Shown piece by piece: positions 1,652-30,512 of a stretch of DNA of 30,512 nucleotides. The notes beneath the pieces are model-generated. The model was not told the DNA's origin and searched no databases. It was given only the letters and a program-made list of their open reading frames with translations. Source of the stretch: Candidatus Woesearchaeota archaeon (GTDB lineage Archaea; Nanobdellota; Nanobdellia; Woesearchaeales; CG1-02-33-12); contig PWVO01000017.1 of assembly GCA_003561825.1 (NCBI GenBank), positions 1 through 30,512 on the forward strand, read 5' to 3'. The position numbers were made by a program, and so were the translations under genes. The first letter of the stretch is position 1, and the number at the start of each line of letters is the position of its first letter.

Positions 1652-2116
1652 ATGGAAGGGTATTACAAATACCGGGTTACATTCAGAAGGCACGTTGTCA
1701 TCGAAGGCGTGTCTTCTCATGAGTCCGTCGGCGGGTATCAGCTCTCGTCGGAGGATGCATACGACCACTTGGTTGAACAAGTCAGGCGGGCCAGGTTGAA
1801 CGGTGATGAGATCGTGGAAGTTTACATCTCCACCAACCTTATCACAAATCCGTTTCTTGAGGATGATTGTCTTCTCTATGAGGACAACTACGACACACCG
1901 ATCAGACTCTCCAATCTCTCATCTCGTACAAAGAATGCTCTATGCCGAGCTGGAATCACAACTTTAGAACAGCTTGCGTGTATGGGGCTCGTCGAGGTAT
2001 TAGAGATCCGCAACATCGGCATCCACACTCTACGAGAGATCAACAATGAATTCCATCTTTGGAACGGTCTGGACATCGACGTGATCGCAGAGCAACCATC
2101 ACTGCTCTATAGCTAA
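1652..2116 (+). CDS. Protein with a C-terminal RNA polymerase alpha-CTD-like domain
   Basis: LSSRTKNALCRAGITTLEQL…VLEIRNIGIHTLREI matches the alpha-CTD pattern LSxRxxNxLxxAGIxTxxxL…IRNxGxxxLxEI. Confidence 0.8.
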   Translation: MEGYYKYRVTFRRHVVIEGVSSHESVGGYQLSSEDAYDHLVEQVRRARLNGDEIVEVYISTNLITNPFLEDDCLLYEDNYDTPIRLSNLSSRTKNALCRAGITTLEQLACMGLVEVLEIRNIGIHTLREINNEFHLWNGLDIDVIAEQPSLLYS

Positions 2117-15454: not shown

Positions 15455-15832
15455 ATGACCAAAATAGAAACTACGGACACAGTGCAAGAAGCAATCATCA
15501 AGATGTCAGACGGAAACCCAGGTGCAGTAAGGGTTCTGTGTGATGTAATAAATAACGGCAGAGCTATAGATCCAGATAGTGCGATGGGGTCATTTGGGTC
15601 TATAGCAATCTTGGATATGTTAGAGATTTATGGGTCTGGGATATGGATGCTTTACAAGGATGTATGCGGAGAAGATATCGTAAAGATGATTGCCGTACTT
15701 CGCGCATGGCAGATCGGGTTGGTTTCAGCATCTACAATTACTTATGCTATGGAAAATCGTGGAGATGGTTTAGATGTAGATGATGTGCTATCTCGAGTAC
15801 AAGAAAGATTACCAGACTTTGGAAAGGAGTGA
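15455..15832 (+). CDS. Hypothetical phage protein (MSDGNPGA motif)
   Basis: AAGGAG SD. Confidence 0.7.
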   Translation: MTKIETTDTVQEAIIKMSDGNPGAVRVLCDVINNGRAIDPDSAMGSFGSIAILDMLEIYGSGIWMLYKDVCGEDIVKMIAVLRAWQIGLVSASTITYAMENRGDGLDVDDVLSRVQERLPDFGKE

Positions 15833-15839
15833 AGACACA

Positions 15840-16514
15840 ATGAGGTACTCAAAGATTCAGACATTGTATAATCGTGACACCGATGGTAATTTCGGTGTTA
15901 TACCAGGGCAATTTAGATGTGACGAATTTGCCTTGATTAGCAAATGGCTCATTACTGAGAAGATAGATGGGCGCAACCATCGAGTTATGCTGTTTGCAGA
16001 TGGTCATGTAGAACATCGAGGTCGTACTGACCGTGCTCAGTTTGCACCCTTCATGATGGATGCTGCCCAACGGCTGGTAGACAATAACACGTTGCGGACA
16101 GTCATTGAGCAAGATGTCAATGGTGAATGGCCGATGACTATTCTGTATGGCGAGCTTTATGGCCCGAAGATTCAATCGGGCGGGAAGTATTGTGATAATA
16201 TCAGGTTACGCTTATTCGATGTTAGAATTGGTGACTGGTGGCTAAATTACAAAGATGTAGTATCAATATCTGGAAAGCTAAACTTAGGTTATGCGCCCGT
16301 ATTAGCAGTCGAAGCTGATTGGGTTCCTACTTGCAAGGCTGAGCTTTTGGATTTATTTCCATACAATTGCAGTGTAATAAACAAAAGAGAAAATGTTGAA
16401 CCAGAAGGCATCGTAGCTCGCACTGATCCACTCTTACTCAATCGTAGGGGTGAGCGGGTGATGTGGAAGTTGAAGGTCTCAGACTTTAAGGGGAAGGGAC
16501 ACAATTCCAGATGA
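15840..16514 (+). CDS. ATP-dependent RNA ligase, Rnl2-like nucleotidyltransferase domain
   Basis: Motif I TEKIDG, GELYG, LFDV, EGIVAR, WKLK. Confidence 0.85.
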   Translation: MRYSKIQTLYNRDTDGNFGVIPGQFRCDEFALISKWLITEKIDGRNHRVMLFADGHVEHRGRTDRAQFAPFMMDAAQRLVDNNTLRTVIEQDVNGEWPMTILYGELYGPKIQSGGKYCDNIRLRLFDVRIGDWWLNYKDVVSISGKLNLGYAPVLAVEADWVPTCKAELLDLFPYNCSVINKRENVEPEGIVARTDPLLLNRRGERVMWKLKVSDFKGKGHNSR

Positions 16515-22068: not shown

Positions 22069-22080
22069 TGACACATGTCA
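22069..22080. promoter_or_regulatory. TGACACATGTCA box upstream of the vWA gene
   Basis: Variant of the TGACA-NN-TGTCA palindrome. Confidence 0.6.
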
Positions 22081-22220
22081 CATAGCGCCGTAACGCACGA
22101 GGTAGCTTTCTAACAGGGGCATTTTGCTACATACAATGCGCTATCTAAATCCAACACTCGTCGCTTAGAACGCCACCTAACGCAATCTAAGCCCATTCTA
22201 GAACACAGGTAGGCCCATAT

Positions 22221-24623: not shown

Positions 24624-24895
24624 TTTACACTATAGGTTACGCAGAACATTACGAGAAACAATTTAAAGAAAGCGAAGCACAAGGCAAACCTCTCATAAAA
24701 ATAGGGCGCACCATAGATTACAATGGCGGGTCTGTCTGGCGCACACGCGAAGAAGCACAAAGCTACTTAGACGGACGGGGCATGCATGAATACTCTGTAT
24801 ACGGAGTCCTGGCTGATTGGGACAGGGATACAGAAGGAAACAAATATCATTCATTCAATAATTTATTAGTTAATTCGGAGTTAGTAAAGATTTAA
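24620..24895 (+). CDS. Hypothetical protein
   Basis: ATGA coupled. Confidence 0.7.
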   Translation: MIYTIGYAEHYEKQFKESEAQGKPLIKIGRTIDYNGGSVWRTREEAQSYLDGRGMHEYSVYGVLADWDRDTEGNKYHSFNNLLVNSELVKI

Positions 24896-27800
24896 TGTTA
24901 ACAGGAAACCAAAAAGAGGTATTTACAAGAAGATACGTTAGGAAAGACGCACAAGGAAATCCTATAGAAACAGTAGAAGATGTATTCCACAGAGTCGCAC
25001 TCAACGTAGGTATAGTAGAAAGACAGTGGCACGACGACAATGAAGTAGAAAAAACAATTAAAGACTTCGAGTCCATGCTATCCGACATGGAATTCCTCCC
25101 CAATTCCCCAACGTGGACAGGCGCAGGGACTCCACTAGGTTTACTTTCAGCATGCTTTGTGCTTCCAGTAGAAGACGACATGGGACGCAAGCGCGGTGGC
25201 ATCTTTGACACGCTTAAAGATATGGCATTAATATTCCAGACCGGAGGAGGTATAGGACTATCATTAAGCAAGCTACGACCAGATGGTGCATACATCAGCA
25301 CGTCAGGCGGTAAGGCTACAGGGCCAGTAGGATTTCTAAAAGTATTCGATAAAGCATCAGAAGTGATTTCGCAGGGAGGATGCTTAACACCAGATACTCT
25401 AGTATTTACTGATAAGGGCATGCTACGCCTTGACGAGATCATTCCTAACCCTAAAGAGGGATGGGGCAATCACAGTATAAAGGTTGCCACTGATGAAGGT
25501 GTAAAACGATCTCCAGCATTCTATAACAATGGTATATCCAAGACCCTCAAAGTTTACACCAATTCGGGTATCAGTATCGCGGGAACGCCAGACCACAAAG
25601 TCAAATTGATGACTAAAAACGGTCTCCTGTGGAAAGAGATAAAGCATCTGCAAAAGGGCGATTACATAGCGATAAAGCTGGGAGAGCACACAGGGCACAA
25701 GCAAGAGCTAGATCATCCAACTATAACTCACCACAACCAAATCGAGCCCACCTTCCCAAATACACTGAACAAAGACCTAGCATTCTTTCTAGGCTACTTA
25801 ACCGGAAATGGATTCGTCGCATCTAATGAAGGTGATTACAGAGTGGGTGTCACAGTTCCTCATAAATCATACCTAATGAAAGAGATGCCACGGCTTATAA
25901 CATCCCTGTTCAGCGTACCAGTCTATCGCAGTGTGGACAAGGGCAATAGCTCCACAACCCTTATCGTTCACAATCGTGCTCTCAAAGAGTTTCTTGAAAT
26001 GAATGACTTGGATAAAAAGGACAGTCTCACAGCCCGCATCCCCAAGAAGATACGCATGAGTCCAAAGAGTATCTTAGGTGTATACCTGCAAGGACTGTTT
26101 GAAGCTGACGGGTCTTTATGTCATGGATACCCACAGCTAAATACATCGTCACACAGACTTGCCAATGAGATAGCTACAATGCTAATTGGCCTCGGGTGCC
26201 CCGTAAACATCAGGGCTCGCCAGCCATCTAAAAACCGTTGGGGTGACAGTACATCCTATTTTGTTAGGCCGAAATCACACATTGGACTTAATTCTTACAG
26301 AAAGTATGTTCCCTGCCACAAAGAATCACGTTTTATGGCAGTCGAGGATCATAAGCCAGATCTCTCCAGAGAGCAGTCTTACCGCCTGCCATATCCGAAT
26401 CAGTGGATAGGTAAAGTCCTAAACCTGGTAACACGAAAAGAGTACCCACGTCTTAGAAAGAGTTTGCTGCGGTACAGAAGGGGCAGTAGAAACCTTACTG
26501 TATCTGCATATAAGTCGCTGTCGCAAGACTATGAGGTCTTTAGAAATAACGCAATGCCAGTAGATAATATCTGGTTTGTTGAGGTTACAAAAGTGGAGCC
26601 CGCTGGCGAGTCACTGACACTAGATCTGGAGGTTGAAGACAATCATACGTATTTAGCCAATGGCATCATAACACATAACCCTCGCCGGGGCGCTGGCATG
26701 GCAGTACTCCGTTACGACCATCCTGACATCTTAGATTTTATCACTTGCAAACAGTCCGAAAACGACATCACAAACTTTAACATTTCAGTAGCAGTAGACA
26801 ATGATTTCATGACAGCGGTTAAAGAAGACTTAGAGATAGCATTAATAAACCCCCAGGACGGTAAGGTCTGGGATAATATCAGTGCTAGATCTATAATGAA
26901 CGCTATAACCTCTAATGCTGTCAACAATGGCGAACCAGGGCTTTTATTTTTAGACAGAGCAAATGAAGACAACCCATGCCCGTCACTAGGCAGTTATCAT
27001 GCTACAAACCCTTGCGGTGAGCAGTTTCTCAAACCCTATCAAAACTGCTGCTTAGGTACAATCAACTTAGTCAAACATCTCGACTCGAACAACAAAATAA
27101 ATTACGAGAAACTAAACAGAACAATTAAGCTAGGAGTCCGCTTTCTCGACGATGTTATTGACGCTAACAAATACATCAAATCCATACCCGAACTAGAAGA
27201 GAAAGCAAAGGAAACACGCAGAATCGGCCTCGGTATCACAGGACTTGCAGACGTTCTTTACCTTAACAATATAAGATATGGCAGTGAAGAAGCTGTAAGT
27301 TTTATAACGAATTTAATGATGGATATAAGAGCTACAGCAATAGAGACGAGTGTTGAGTTAGCACAAGTACGAGGGCCATTTCCTGCATTTGAAGAAAGTA
27401 TATACGTAACAGATGAATGGTATAAAAACATCAACAAAAAAGGCCCTTTTGAATACTTAAGATCTCATTTTACGAAAATAGGAATCCGTAATGCCACACA
27501 GCTCACAATAGCCCCGACAGGAACGAGGTCAACTATCGCTGGTGTAGAAGGTTATGGATGCGAACCTGTATTTGCCCTTGCATACACCAGAATGCTAGTA
27601 GAACGAGAAGGCGACGTAGAACTCCAATATACTAGCCCATTGTTTAAGCAAGCATTAATTGATGAAGGCATAGAAGGAAATGAGTTAGAACGCATCCTCA
27701 ACGACGTTTCCAAGACTGGCAGCTGTCAAGGCGTAGAAGGCATACCTCAACACATCAAAGATGTTTATGTTGTATCACGCGATATAACTCCTAAAGAACA

Positions 27801-28500
27801 TGTAGACATGCAGGCTGCAGCACAATCGTGGATAGATAGCAGTATATCGAAGACTATCAACTGTCCCGAAGGTACAACAAAAGAAGATATAGAAGAAATA
27901 TTTAATTACGCTTGGCAAAAGAGATGCAAGGGGATTACCGTTTACGTAGCCAACTCGAGAGAAAAAACAGTGCTACAAACAAATAACGAAAAAGACGAAG
28001 GCCCCATAAATAACGTCGAAACACTATACGAACGTCCATTAGAGCTTACTGGAAAAACTATACGCCAACCAACACCATTAGGTACAGCTTTCGTTACACT
28101 AAACTACAATGAAGAAGACGAACCATTCGAGGTCTTCGTAAACATTGGTCGCGCAGGTTCTGACGTATCCGCTGTCGCCGAAGGACTTGGCCGACTAATA
28201 TCCCTTATCCTAAGAATCCCGCCAAACATGGATTCCAAGTCAAGACTCAAGCACGTCGTAGAACAGCTGAAAGGCATAGGCGGTGGAAACCCATTAGGAT
28301 TCGGCAAGAACCGCATCAGAAGCCTGCCTGATGGTGTAGCAGAGGTCTTAGGGAAACAACTAGGTATTATCGACTACAACGGTTGTGGGTGCGACGAGAC
28401 ATTAGAAACACTAGACCTTTGCCCAGAATGCGGCAACGCTTCACTAATAACATCAGAGGGATGTAGCCACTGTAAGCTATGCGGATTTAACAAGTGCTAA
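24895..28500 (+). CDS. nrdJ: Adenosylcobalamin-dependent (class II) ribonucleotide reductase with intein
   Basis: PNSPT, SACFV, TNPCGEQ, NCCLGTINL, IAPTG, ISKTIN, TSCPD-like C-terminal domain and CPECG…CKLC. Confidence 0.92.
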   Translation: MLTGNQKEVFTRRYVRKDAQGNPIETVEDVFHRVALNVGIVERQWHDDNEVEKTIKDFESMLSDMEFLPNSPTWTGAGTPLGLLSACFVLPVEDDMGRKRGGIFDTLKDMALIFQTGGGIGLSLSKLRPDGAYISTSGGKATGPVGFLKVFDKASEVISQGGCLTPDTLVFTDKGMLRLDEIIPNPKEGWGNHSIKVATDEGVKRSPAFYNNGISKTLKVYTNSGISIAGTPDHKVKLMTKNGLLWKEIKHLQKGDYIAIKLGEHTGHKQELDHPTITHHNQIEPTFPNTLNKDLAFFLGYLTGNGFVASNEGDYRVGVTVPHKSYLMKEMPRLITSLFSVPVYRSVDKGNSSTTLIVHNRALKEFLEMNDLDKKDSLTARIPKKIRMSPKSILGVYLQGLFEADGSLCHGYPQLNTSSHRLANEIATMLIGLGCPVNIRARQPSKNRWGDSTSYFVRPKSHIGLNSYRKYVPCHKESRFMAVEDHKPDLSREQSYRLPYPNQWIGKVLNLVTRKEYPRLRKSLLRYRRGSRNLTVSAYKSLSQDYEVFRNNAMPVDNIWFVEVTKVEPAGESLTLDLEVEDNHTYLANGIITHNPRRGAGMAVLRYDHPDILDFITCKQSENDITNFNISVAVDNDFMTAVKEDLEIALINPQDGKVWDNISARSIMNAITSNAVNNGEPGLLFLDRANEDNPCPSLGSYHATNPCGEQFLKPYQNCCLGTINLVKHLDSNNKINYEKLNRTIKLGVRFLDDVIDANKYIKSIPELEEKAKETRRIGLGITGLADVLYLNNIRYGSEEAVSFITNLMMDIRATAIETSVELAQVRGPFPAFEESIYVTDEWYKNINKKGPFEYLRSHFTKIGIRNATQLTIAPTGTRSTIAGVEGYGCEPVFALAYTRMLVEREGDVELQYTSPLFKQALIDEGIEGNELERILNDVSKTGSCQGVEGIPQHIKDVYVVSRDITPKEHVDMQAAAQSWIDSSISKTINCPEGTTKEDIEEIFNYAWQKRCKGITVYVANSREKTVLQTNNEKDEGPINNVETLYERPLELTGKTIRQPTPLGTAFVTLNYNEEDEPFEVFVNIGRAGSDVSAVAEGLGRLISLILRIPPNMDSKSRLKHVVEQLKGIGGGNPLGFGKNRIRSLPDGVAEVLGKQLGIIDYNGCGCDETLETLDLCPECGNASLITSEGCSHCKLCGFNKC
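25381..26679 (+). mobile_element. Intein (433 aa) with a LAGLIDADG endonuclease; +1 residue is Pro
   Basis: QGG|CLTPDT…YLANGIITHN|PRRGA; LAGLIDADG-like blocks FFLGYLTGNG and YLQGLFEADG. Confidence 0.93.
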
Positions 28501-29971: not shown

Positions 29972-30062
29972 TGACAAATGTCACTATAGGTACCACTAAT
30001 GACAAATGTCACGTCAATAGGTGTACTATGCACTGTGCAAGGGGTGGGGATCATGGTATAAT
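29972..30062 (+). promoter_or_regulatory. Promoter with two TGACAAATGTCA boxes and TGGTATAAT driving the ncRNA cluster
   Basis: Boxes at 29972 and 30000; TATAAT at 30057-30062. Confidence 0.75.
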
Positions 30063-30092: not shown

Positions 30093-30247
30093 GTCCAGGG
30101 AAAGTTTCGGGGCCTGCCCCTCAAGAAAGCATGACCCCTTTATTGAACAGACCCCGAAACATTCCGATTGTCAATATTTGCATAACAGCCGGCGATGATC
30201 GGTTATCTGGTTATACATTATTGAGGTTCAAACCCTCGCCCCTGGAC
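30093..30247 (+). ncRNA. Degenerate tRNA-mimic RNA 1 (Y-RNA-like)
   Basis: GTCCAGGG/CCCTGGAC acceptor-like stem, T arm TGAGG-TTCAAAC-CCTCG, stem CCGATTGTC/GATGATCGG, expanded D-position stem GTTTCGGGG/CCCCGAAAC. Confidence 0.5.
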
Positions 30248-30267: not shown

Positions 30268-30330
30268 GTTGGGCCGTGGTGCGAGCCTTATCCTGATAAG
30301 ATGATCGGCTTGTGCGAAACCTTGCCCAGC
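30268..30330 (+). ncRNA. Structured element between the tRNA mimics
   Basis: GTTGGGC/GCCCAGC closing stem, AGCC/GGCT inner stem, two TGCGA loops, third GATGATCGG copy. Confidence 0.35.
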
Positions 30331-30338
30331 ATTAACAA

Positions 30339-30462
30339 CCCAGGGTAGCTCAGTTGGGAGAGCGCTAAACCCCGATTATCACTAATTACCTAAAATGGGT
30401 CGCAGATGATCGGTTATCCTATGTGGAAGGAGAGGTCGTGGGTTCGAGTCCCACCCCTGGGT
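30339..30462 (+). ncRNA. tRNA-like RNA 2 with a 51-nt structured insertion in the anticodon stem (Y-RNA/YrlA-like tRNA mimic)
   Basis: CCCAGGG/CCCTGGG acceptor, GCTC/GAGC D arm, GTGGG-TTCGAGT-CCCAC T arm; removing 30367-30417 gives a 73-nt cloverleaf with a GTG anticodon loop. Confidence 0.7.
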
Positions 30463-30512
30463 ATGAGAGCACAGCAGTATCGTTGTTCAGTACTAGTCAA
30501 GAATAACAAGAT

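What the first reader, a model, noticed from the sequence alone, without database searches (positions are those of the whole stretch)
30339..30462. tRNA mimic with a 51-nt structured insertion in the anticodon stem
Seen: perfect acceptor, D and T arms. Deleting 30367-30417 restores the CTCCT/AGGAG stem, loop ATGTGGA and variable region AGGTC (73 nt). The insert folds as CCGATTATC/GATGATCGG (9 bp) around an ACCT/GGGT hairpin. It is far too short for a group I intron and shows no clear bulge-helix-bulge. His identity elements (G-1, C73) and CCA are absent. Established: bacterial and phage Y RNAs (YrlA) are tRNA mimics with a Ro60-binding stem at the anticodon position. Inference: a Y-RNA-like RNA or an anticodon-nuclease decoy; GTCGCAG at 30399-30405 loosely resembles the Ro60-binding strand as I recall it.
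Basis: partly seen in the sequence, partly recalled or inferred. Interest (0 to 1): 0.7.

Follow-up and report, generated by a model that had tools for sequence, protein, structure and literature searches.

The report
Phage tRNA carrying a Y-RNA-like stem
A bacteriophage from soda and salt lakes encodes an RNA with a complete histidine-tRNA body whose anticodon stem is split by a 51-base capped hairpin that is a rearranged copy of Y-RNA-like hairpins found next to it, so it is probably a tRNA-shaped scaffold RNA rather than a tRNA with an ordinary intron.

Summary
Rfam's tRNA model spans exactly 30339-30462 (43.5 bits, cut-off 29). Of 36 possible junctions, only deletion of 30367-30417 gives a perfect anticodon arm (His, GUG).

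The context changes the reading. Contig C33 is a bacteriophage contig mis-binned into an archaeal MAG, so the archaeal splicing enzyme is irrelevant, and no bulge-helix-bulge motif exists anyway.

The insert is not junk. Its 22-mer at 30397-30418 and its 9-bp helix recur in a fused paralog (unit 1, 30093-30247) and in two free-standing hairpins: "mid" (30268-30330) and one after a downstream tRNA-Met. The latter matches Rfam Y_RNA across the Ro60-binding helix, but below threshold (24.9 bits against 38). Across the four copies the helix pairs in 36 of 36 cells, with compensatory changes. In the two fused copies the strand order is circularly permuted, so the tRNA body sits where the hairpin's apical loop would be.

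Best reading (about 0.5): an unspliced tRNA/Y-RNA chimera that works like YrlA, but with an open acceptor end and a capped Y stem. A protein-spliced intron remains possible (about 0.2).

No homologs, RNA data or Ro60 gene were found. This scan had already flagged the same stretch as a tandem cassette (e1-5289095).

The parts
30054..30062 (+). Extended -10 promoter candidate TGGTATAAT, preceded by two TGACAAATGTCAC palindromes (29972-29984 and 30000-30012). It probably drives the RNA cluster.
   Evidence: Read; repeat D2. No terminator-like site between the units on the + strand. Promoter activity is inferred.
30093..30247 (+). Unit 1, a paralog of the finding. It has an 8-bp acceptor helix (G-1:C73, T1:A72), a long hairpin (30104-30161) in place of the D arm, the same permuted Y-type stem (30164-30172 with 30194-30202, then TTATC) and a T arm (30222-30238). 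It has no restorable anticodon arm.
   Evidence: Local alignment to unit 2 scores 60 against 25 +/- 4 (maximum 40) for shuffles. Helices listed. None of about 10,000 deletion products is called a tRNA. The 9-bp hairpin is isoenergetic with the MFE fold (-51.1 vs -51.5 kcal/mol).
30268..30330 (+). 'mid', a free-standing Y-RNA-like hairpin between units 1 and 2: lower stem GTTGGGC/GCCCAGC, bulged C, 9-bp upper stem, TTATC. It is followed by ATTAACAA, which runs into position -1 of unit 2.
   Evidence: Shares a consensus fold with the post-Met element: 17 pairs, 8 kept through changes on both sides. Model R1 scores it 95.8 bits, but it is a training sequence. Its only weak Rfam hit is to nematode stem-bulge RNAs (17.5 bits).
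30338..30366 (+). Unit 2, 5' part: A-1, acceptor 5' strand, D arm, G26, C27, T28.
30367..30417 (+). The 51-nt insert, a capped and circularly permuted Y-type stem. In order: linker AAACC; upper-stem strand 30372-30380; spacer 30381-30387; lower stem ACCT 30388-30391; cap AAAAT 30392-30396; lower stem GGGT 30397-30400; CGCA 30401-30404; upper-stem strand 30405-30413; then TTAT (the conserved TTATC ends at 30418).
   Evidence: 22-mer and helix comparison; fold.
30418..30462 (+). Unit 2, 3' part: C29-T31, anticodon loop ATGTGGA (GTG), AGGAG, variable loop AGGTC, T arm, acceptor 3' strand, T73.
30464..30512 (+). 5' part of unit 4, cut by the window end. It is a third acceptor/T-arm RNA: an 11-bp acceptor helix including G-1:C73, a 97-nt non-tRNA middle, and T arm GTAGG-TTCGAAT-CCTAC. 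It ends near window-equivalent 30599 (L180:4164-4299).
   Evidence: read on L180, which differs from the window at 2 of 4212 positions.

Best explanation
The element is a bacteriophage gene for a chimeric non-coding RNA. It has a complete tRNA-His(GUG)-type body: an 8-bp acceptor helix with a -1:73 pair, a D arm, a T arm and all universal tRNA nucleotides. Its anticodon stem is opened between nucleotides 28 and 29 by a 51-nt capped stem. That stem is a circularly permuted copy of the Y-RNA-like hairpins encoded beside it.

Shown here: the tRNA body; the unique restoring junction; homology of the insert to three paralogs; a 9-bp helix kept by compensatory changes; acceptor and T stems kept by compensatory changes in cis; and the bacterial-phage context.

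Inferred: the cluster is transcribed from the extended -10 promoter near 30057 as one precursor (unit 1, 'mid', unit 2, unit 4). The tRNA-type ends let host RNase P and RNase Z cut the units apart. Unit 2 then acts unspliced, as an L-shaped scaffold that presents a Y-type stem where the anticodon arm should be. In other words it would work like YrlA, which joins a tRNA-like domain to a Ro60/Rsr-binding stem, but as its topological isomer: open acceptor end and closed Y stem. The likely purpose is to engage or divert host tRNA-binding proteins and RNA-surveillance proteins (Rsr/PNPase type) during infection.
For: 1. tRNA body: RF00005 at 43.5 bits over exactly 30339-30462. Only one of 36 junctions restores a perfect anticodon arm.
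2. The insert is a conserved module. The 22-mer GGGTCGCAGATGATCGGTTATC matches the post-Met element at 17 of 22 positions (0 of 300 shuffles reach 17) and unit 1 at 17 of 22. The 9-bp helix is paired in 36 of 36 cells across four paralogs, against 11-21 of 36 when the partner is slid, with changes on both sides in at least six of nine columns.
3. The post-Met paralog aligns end to end with Rfam Y_RNA (24.9 bits, E 0.002 for that stretch). It has GGGCCGA...TTGCCC with a bulged C, and GCCGAAG fits GNCGAAN0-1G exactly (motif from PMC4201824). 'mid' and post-Met share a fold with 8 compensatory pairs out of 17.
4. The fused paralog unit 1 keeps the stem plus TTATC (14 of 14 identical) although it can never become a tRNA. 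The stem therefore matters in a mature RNA, not only as something to be removed.
5. The acceptor pairs -1:73 and 1:72, and three T-stem pairs, differ between the units on both strands and pair only in cis (8/8 in cis; I count 6/8 for unit 1's 3' strand with unit 2's 5' strand from the sequences). This supports tRNA-type ends.
6. The nearest-neighbour model disfavours a full anticodon stem around the insert by about 5 kcal/mol.
7. Bacterial-phage context: SLT transglycosylase, sigma-70 region 4/LuxR, RNA polymerase alpha CTD, a tmRNA-like gene, three normal bacterial-type tRNAs, and tetranucleotide correlation to the bin of 0.69 against a median of 0.965.
8. Precedents: phage Y-like RNAs that bind a phage Ro60 and host PNPase (PMC12135203); M. 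smegmatis YrlA opened by RNase P and given CCA.
Against: There is no expression or end-mapping data. No homolog outside this phage lineage was found, so every comparison is between paralogs of one locus, which are not independent. The Y RNA assignment rests on a sub-threshold Rfam hit to a paralog, not to the element itself. The insert's Ro-type motif is imperfect (GTCGCAG) and its lower helix has only 4 bp. No Ro60/TROVE gene was seen in about 33 kb of the phage or in either bin. Unit 2 keeps a perfectly restorable anticodon arm (C27 and T28 still complement A42 and G43; U33 and G37 are intact). That is what a spliced tRNA would need, and an unspliced scaffold would not obviously conserve it.
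Confidence: 0.5

Rival explanations
1. It is a tRNA-His gene with a protein-dependent intron. The 51-nt hairpin is cut out precisely at 30366|30367 and 30417|30418. Because the junction lies inside the anticodon stem, the two exon ends would be held on the AGGAG strand as a nicked duplex. The phage's Rnl2-type RNA ligase (15780-16514) would seal that nick, giving a 73-nt decoding tRNA. The excised hairpin could itself be a small Y-like RNA, as the archaeal tRNA-Trp intron yields a C/D-box RNA.
For: The junction restoring a flawless cloverleaf is unique. All universal tRNA nucleotides and the split stem's complementarity are retained, even though the insert appears to be old: unit 1 and unit 2 have diverged heavily outside the stem. 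A PF09414/phrog_548 RNA ligase lies on the same contig. Short unexplained introns in phage tRNAs have been published (Devoto 2019, PMC6784885).
Against: No endonuclease is known in bacteria or phages that would make these two cuts. There is no BHB, no group I or other ribozyme hit, and no insert-less allele in the contigs laid. A-1:U73 instead of G-1:C73 makes a poor HisRS substrate by established identity rules. The same phage's Trp, Lys and Met tRNAs are uninterrupted. Unit 1 keeps the same stem without any restorable tRNA. The ligase, together with a tRNA-Lys(UUU), is equally well explained as repair of anticodon-nuclease damage in the manner of phage T4.
Confidence: 0.2
2. It is evolutionary debris. 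Tandem duplication and recombination between tRNA genes and Y-like hairpins in this RNA cluster produced a disrupted tRNA-His pseudogene with no function of its own.
For: The region is a tandem array: GATGATCGG occurs three times spaced 106 and 105 nt apart, with degenerate further copies. Unit 1 has lost its D and anticodon arms. No homologs exist to show conservation.
Against: Compensatory changes on both strands keep the acceptor, the T stem and the 9-bp helix paired in every copy. The stem plus TTATC is more conserved between the units (14 of 14) than their T loops are. Unit 2 has not lost a single universal tRNA nucleotide.
Confidence: 0.12
3. It is an unspliced decoy for a host tRNA-targeting nuclease or another tRNA-His-specific enzyme. 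It would display a GUG anticodon loop, or an 8-bp His-type acceptor, to soak up an anticodon nuclease, queuine transglycosylase or HisRS.
For: The U33-G34-U35 loop and the -1:73 pair are retained. The phage also carries a tRNA-Lys(UUU) and an RNA ligase, which are typical counter-measures to anticodon nucleases. Units 1 and 4 have G-1:C73.
Against: No direct evidence. The idea does not explain why the inserted stem is the most conserved part of the unit. The anticodon stem is predicted to be only 3 bp in the unspliced RNA.
Confidence: 0.1
4. It is an archaeal tRNA with a non-canonical BHB intron, spliced by the EndA enzyme of the MAG in which the contig was binned.
For: The bin is archaeal (16S at 1456 bits). 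It encodes EndA and has many intron-bearing tRNAs.
Against: C33 is a compositional outlier with bacterial-phage genes and a tmRNA-like gene. The same sequence was binned with a bacterium in another study. For the restoring excision the BHB test gives H = 3 or 1 and inner helix = 0 or 1, whereas an archaeal control scores 4/5/3.
Confidence: 0.02
5. The conserved words are DNA-level protein-binding sites rather than RNA elements. AGATGATCGG occurs three times at 105-106 bp, about ten helical turns, so all copies would face the same side of the DNA.
For: Spacing of 106 and 105 nt. Each copy contains a GATC, and the phage has two DNA methyltransferases.
Against: The partner strands covary to keep a helix, including A:U to G:U and G:C to C:G changes. 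DNA sites would not need that. The surrounding tRNA features are RNA features.
Confidence: 0.04

Closest known systems
YrlA-type bacterial and phage Y RNAs (Chen et al. 2014, PMC4201824; structure in Wang et al. 2018, bioRxiv 10.1101/312249)
   Same: A tRNA-like domain with authentic D and T arms is joined to a Y-type stem at the position of the anticodon arm. YrlA genes occur in phages and next to tRNA genes. M. smegmatis YrlA can be opened at its acceptor stem by RNase P and receives CCA.
   Different: YrlA is circularly permuted: T arm, capped acceptor stem-loop, then D arm, with the RNA's own ends forming the Ro60-binding stem. Here the order is that of a tRNA, the acceptor is open, the Y stem is capped by AAAAT, and an anticodon loop is still present. 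The GNCGAAN0-1G motif is imperfect, no rsr gene lies nearby, and no Rfam Y RNA model hits the element.
Yrl1 and Yrl2 of Thermus phage phiLo (PMC12135203)
   Same: A phage encodes two free-standing Y-RNA-like hairpins with a terminal stem, a bulge and a CGAA motif. The 'mid' and post-Met elements here are of that type, and post-Met has CGAA.
   Different: phiLo encodes its own Ro60 next to them and binding was shown experimentally. Here no Ro60 gene was found and nothing has been tested. phiLo has no reported fusion of the stem to a tRNA body.
'Enigmatic' introns of Lak megaphage tRNAs (Devoto et al. 2019, PMC6784885)
   Same: A phage tRNA gene is interrupted by a short insert that is not a group I intron and has no known removal mechanism.
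   Different: For the Lak inserts, intron-containing and intron-less alleles were compared and the inserts were predicted with eukaryote-type tRNA settings. Here the insert lies inside the 5' strand of the anticodon stem (28/29), no insert-less allele exists, and the insert belongs to a Y-like family.
Archaeal non-canonical tRNA introns (BHB type)
   Same: Small size and a position outside 37/38. In archaea such an intron can itself encode a functional small RNA, for example the C/D-box RNA in the tRNA-Trp intron.
   Different: There is no bulge-helix-bulge at the junctions, and the host is bacterial, so there is no splicing endonuclease.
Dimeric-tRNA origin model for YrlA (Sim and Wolin 2018, as discussed in 10.1101/312249)
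   Same: A tandem array of tRNA-like units whose inter-arm sequences pair into a Y-type stem is the arrangement the model requires. Formally, the T arm of unit 1 plus the D arm of unit 2 could be read as a YrlA.
   Different: Here the pairs that covary (-1:73, 1:72 and the lower stem GGGT/ACCT) work only in cis, so the tRNA-ended form is the one under selection.

Membership tests
tRNA (Rfam RF00005) | Cloverleaf with acceptor, D and T arms and the universal nucleotides | tested here: met
   43.5 bits against a cut-off of 29, model positions 1-71. Universal nucleotides read.
tRNA (Rfam RF00005) | Contiguous 5-bp anticodon stem with a 7-nt loop in the primary transcript | tested here: not met
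   51 nt interrupt the stem between positions 28 and 29. Enforcing the split stem costs about 5 kcal/mol.
Bacterial tRNA-His | G-1 paired with C73 (8-bp acceptor helix), anticodon GUG | tested here: inconclusive
   The 8-bp helix and GUG are present, but the extra pair is A-1:U73. The paralogs unit 1 and unit 4 have G-1:C73. Charging cannot be tested here.
YrlA / bacterial Y RNA | tRNA-like domain with D and T arms | tested here: met
YrlA / bacterial Y RNA | Ro60-binding stem formed by the RNA's own 5' and 3' ends; permuted order T arm, capped acceptor stem-loop, D arm | tested here: not met
   D precedes T, the acceptor is open with pairs that covary in cis (8/8 in cis; I count 6/8 in trans from those sequences), and the Y-type stem is capped.
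YrlA / bacterial Y RNA | GNCGAAN0-1G motif on the 5' strand of the Ro60-binding stem | tested here: inconclusive
   The insert has GTCGCAG (one mismatch). Unit 1 has GCCGGCG at the same register. The post-Met paralog has GCCGAAG, an exact fit (motif).
YrlA / bacterial Y RNA | Gene within about 4 kb of rsr (TROVE/Ro60) on the same strand | tested here: not met
   No PF05731 match in the bin that includes C33 or in the second MAG. Downstream ORFs to about +3.3 kb are small and match no family. The phage genome is incomplete, so a more distant gene is not excluded.
Y RNA (Rfam RF00019) | Match to the covariance model at or above the 38-bit gathering score | tested here: not met
   No hit on the element at E up to 10. 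The paralog after tRNA-Met scores 24.9 bits.
Y RNA (any) | Binds Ro60/Rsr | not testable with these tools
   Needs a binding assay such as EMSA or co-immunoprecipitation.
Archaeal BHB intron | Helix, 3-nt bulge, 4-bp helix, 3-nt bulge, helix at the two splice sites | tested here: not met
   For the restoring excision H = 3 or 1, h1 = 2 or 0, h2 = 0 or 1. The control tRNA-Met on C24 gives 4/5/3 at the canonical site.
Group I intron in tRNA | Ribozyme core of about 200 nt or more, inserted in the anticodon loop | tested here: not met
   The insert is 51 nt and lies in the stem. No Rfam intron or ribozyme family hits at E up to 10.

The most novel reading that the evidence does not exclude
This is a tRNA-ended topological isomer of YrlA. 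It would be cut out by RNase P and RNase Z and might receive CCA or even an amino acid, while its capped stem binds host Ro60/Rsr. The phage would thereby couple or divert the host Rsr-PNPase RNA-decay machine to tRNA-handling proteins. Together with the free-standing Y-like hairpins in the same tandem array, it would be a living intermediate showing how Y RNAs arise from tandem tRNA genes.
Probability: 0.15. Interest if true: 0.85.

Novelty: new variant of a known kind. Interest (0 to 1): 0.62.

Why it matters
Bacterial Y RNAs are thought to derive from tRNAs, possibly from dimeric tRNA transcripts, but no intermediate form has been described in the papers I could search. This locus holds, in one tandem array, free-standing Y-like hairpins and tRNA bodies that carry the same stem in permuted order. 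That makes the origin model testable on real sequences.

It would also extend phage-encoded RNA mimicry to a phage with no visible Ro60 gene, which suggests manipulation of host RNA surveillance. The same cluster holds Y-like RNAs, tRNA-like RNAs, a miniature tmRNA-like RNA and ordinary tRNAs.

If the insert instead proves to be spliced, it would be a protein-dependent tRNA intron in a bacterial virus, sealed as a nick within a stem. No mechanism for that is known.

Tried and rejected
- **Archaeal reading.** I first took the many intron-bearing tRNAs, the EndA gene and the archaeal 16S of the bin to mean an archaeal BHB intron. I rejected this after finding bacterial-phage genes, the compositional outlier status of C33 and no BHB.
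- **Genome-wide repeat or MITE.** GATGATCGG occurs 9 times in the bin against about 8 expected, and I saw no target-site duplication.
- **Homolog searches, all empty or chance:**
  - 60 relatives of the bin gave only T-arm words.
  - INPHARED phages by blastn gave no match.
  - IMG/VR patterns and the metagenome pattern gave hits with no tRNA context.
  - The genome contigs pattern gave one real hit, L189, which is the same phage at 99.93% identity.
  - Neighbour proteins have 0-3 homologs, on short contigs whose DNA could not be retrieved.
  - RNR relatives are only about 50% identical and mostly cellular Chloroflexota.
- **Sequencing runs.** No RNA holder was listed. The 'joints' seen when contigs were laid are ordinary tRNAs of other organisms that share D-arm and T-arm words, not spliced forms.
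- **ARAGORN on all deletion products of unit 2.** Too permissive to be informative: 432 calls. I replaced it with the strict junction test.
- **RNA ligase.** phmmer against PDB sequences gave no match.
- **Permuted YrlA-like fold.** I considered a fold from the T arm of unit 1 plus the D arm of unit 2 and rejected it. By my count from the sequences, the acceptor would pair 6/8 and the lower stem 1/4, against 8/8 and 4/4 in cis.

Full report
**1. The observation.** Rfam's tRNA model matches window 30339-30462 on the + strand from model position 1 to 71, at 43.5 bits (cut-off 29), with a 64-nt gap in the anticodon arm. ARAGORN finds nothing by default, and with introns allowed it miscalls Arg(CCT) with a poor stem. 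The acceptor, D and T arms are perfect and every universal tRNA nucleotide is present.

I tested all 36 junctions that keep the D arm, the T arm and standard spacing. That excision is 30367-30417, or equivalently 30366-30416. G-1, C73 and CCA are absent, but A30338 pairs with T30462.

**2. Whose gene is it?** The window is the whole of contig C33 in a 1.1-Mb bin that is about 80% complete. The bin is archaeal: it has a full archaeal 16S, an EndA gene, and many tRNAs with 12-66-nt introns. That first suggested an archaeal intron.

C33, however, is the bin's longest contig and a tetranucleotide outlier, with a correlation of 0.69 to the bin mean against a median of 0.965. It encodes an SLT lytic transglycosylase, a LuxR/sigma-70 region 4 protein, a bacterial RNA polymerase alpha C-terminal domain, two DNA methyltransferases, an intein-bearing class II RNR and an Rnl2-type RNA ligase.

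Two other assemblies extend the contig. L180 differs from the window at 2 of 4212 positions. L189 is 99.93% identical to L180 and was binned elsewhere into a Syntrophomonadaceae MAG. Together they show, downstream, a 123-nt tmRNA-like RNA (RF00023, 59.8 bits) and three uninterrupted bacterial-type tRNAs: Trp, Lys(UUU) and Met. tmRNA is a bacterial system. This is therefore a bacteriophage, and the archaeal EndA is irrelevant. A formal BHB test also fails for the restoring excision, while archaeal control tRNAs pass.

**3. The element is one of a family.**
- *Unit 1.* The region upstream (30093-30247) is a paralog. The local alignment scores 60, against 25 +/- 4 for shuffles. Unit 1 has its own 8-bp acceptor helix, a T arm and the same 9-bp hairpin followed by TTATC, but it has a long hairpin instead of a D arm. 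No deletion makes it a tRNA: 0 of about 10,000 products are called.
- *Unit 4.* A third acceptor/T-arm RNA starts at 30464 and is cut by the window end.
- *Compensatory changes.* Between units, the -1:73 pair (G:C, A:U, G:C), the 1:72 pair and three T-stem pairs differ on both strands, and they pair only within a unit.
- *Transcription.* An extended -10 promoter (TGGTATAAT, 30054-30062) with two upstream palindromes precedes unit 1, and no terminator separates the units.

**4. What the insert is.** Directly after the downstream tRNA-Met lies a hairpin that Rfam's Y_RNA model aligns end to end. The score is 24.9 bits, below the 38-bit cut-off, with E = 0.002 for that stretch. The hairpin has GGGCCGA...TTGCCC with a bulged C, and GCCGAAG fits the published GNCGAAN0-1G motif exactly. 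The only other hit is to nematode stem-bulge RNAs, which from my own knowledge are Y RNA homologs.

A paralogous hairpin, 'mid' (30268-30330), lies between units 1 and 2. The two share a consensus fold in which 8 of 17 pairs are kept through changes on both sides.

The 3' part of the finding's insert (30397-30418) aligns without gaps to the 5' strand of these hairpins. It matches the post-Met element at 17 of 22 positions, a value reached by 0 of 300 shuffles. Positions 9-17 of this 22-mer form a 9-bp helix with a partner strand in all four elements. All 36 cells are paired, against 11-21 of 36 when the partner is slid, and changes on both sides occur in at least six of nine columns.

In 'mid' and post-Met the partner lies downstream, giving an ordinary hairpin. 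In units 1 and 2 it lies upstream. The lower stem is capped by a small loop (ACCT-AAAAT-GGGT in unit 2), and the tRNA body occupies the place of the apical loop. The insert is therefore a circularly permuted, capped Y-type stem.

**5. Mechanism.** I favour (0.5) an unspliced chimeric RNA with three properties:
- tRNA-type ends that allow RNase P and RNase Z to release it from the precursor;
- an L-shaped body;
- a Y-type stem where the anticodon arm should be.

This is how YrlA is built (PMC4201824; 10.1101/312249), except that here the acceptor is open and the Y stem is closed. The arguments are as follows:
- The stem is the most conserved part of the unit (14 of 14 bases identical between units 1 and 2).
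- It is kept in unit 1, which cannot become a tRNA.
- It belongs to a family that also exists as free-standing hairpins.
- Folding disfavours a full anticodon stem around it by about 5 kcal/mol.

Phage Y-like RNAs that bind a phage Ro60 and host PNPase have been published (PMC12135203). Binding to Ro60 is entirely inferred here, and no TROVE gene was found.

**6. Rivals.**
- *Protein-dependent intron (0.2).* It explains why C27 and T28 still complement A42 and G43 and why the loop is intact. A nick inside a stem would suit the Rnl2-type ligase. But no cutting enzyme is known, the identity pair is A:U, and the phage's other tRNAs are uninterrupted.
- *Debris from tandem duplication (0.12).* The compensatory changes argue against it.
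- *Nuclease or enzyme decoy (0.1).* It is compatible with the main reading but untested.
- *Archaeal BHB intron (0.02) and DNA-level binding sites (0.04).* Both are poorly supported.

**7. Limits.** No homolog outside this phage lineage was found in any collection. All covariation is therefore between paralogs of one locus. No RNA run holds the sequence. The Y RNA assignment is sub-threshold.

**8. Verdict.** By YrlA's defining features the element is not a member of that family, but it plausibly works like one. I class it as a new variant of a known kind: a tRNA-mimicking Y-type RNA.

Noticed in passing
L180:5692-5760 (window-equivalent 31992-32060), directly after tRNA-Met: A free-standing Y-RNA-like hairpin. 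Rfam Y_RNA scores it 24.9 bits (cut-off 38) over the full model, with GGGCCGA...TTGCCC, a bulged C, GCCGAAG and GTGGGTTATC. No Ro60 gene is in sight.
   Followed up: yes
L180:4766-4888 (window-equivalent 31066-31188): A 123-nt miniature tmRNA-like RNA (RF00023, 59.8 bits against a cut-off of 47). It has the tRNA-like domain with G3:U70 and only 52 nt where the model has 300. On the identical copy in L189, ARAGORN with -m called no tmRNA or tag peptide.
   Followed up: partly
L180:5449-5690 (window-equivalent 31749-31990): Three ordinary uninterrupted phage tRNAs: Trp(CCA), Lys(TTT) and Met(CAT). Together with the RNA ligase at window 15780-16514, the tRNA-Lys(UUU) resembles a counter-measure to anticodon nucleases.
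   Followed up: partly
window 22077-22155: A possible third free-standing hairpin of the Y-like family (model R1, 18.8 bits, E about 0.003). It has lower stem ATAGCGC/GCGCTAT followed by CG, lies just after an operator-like palindrome, and lacks TTATC.
   Followed up: partly
whole window (contig C33) and L189: The contig is a bacteriophage mis-binned into an archaeal MAG. The same phage (99.93% identical) from a soda-lake sediment was binned into a Syntrophomonadaceae MAG. Neither bin is evidence of the host.
   Followed up: yes
G000 contigs C18:1408-1523, C24:1196-1320 and C148:947-1078: The archaeon's own tRNA-Trp, tRNA-Met and tRNA-Leu(CAA) carry 35-49-nt introns with GATGAG/GATGAT words that look like C/D boxes, as in the known archaeal tRNA-Trp intron sRNA.
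   Followed up: no
window 24895-28500: A class II ribonucleotide reductase with a LAGLIDADG intein. The best relatives are about 50% identical and mostly from Chloroflexota/Anaerolineae, a weak hint about the host lineage.
   Followed up: partly
window 1652-2116: A 154-aa phage protein with a bacterial RNA polymerase alpha C-terminal domain (PF03118, E 3e-10), possibly a mimic of a host transcription factor.
   Followed up: no
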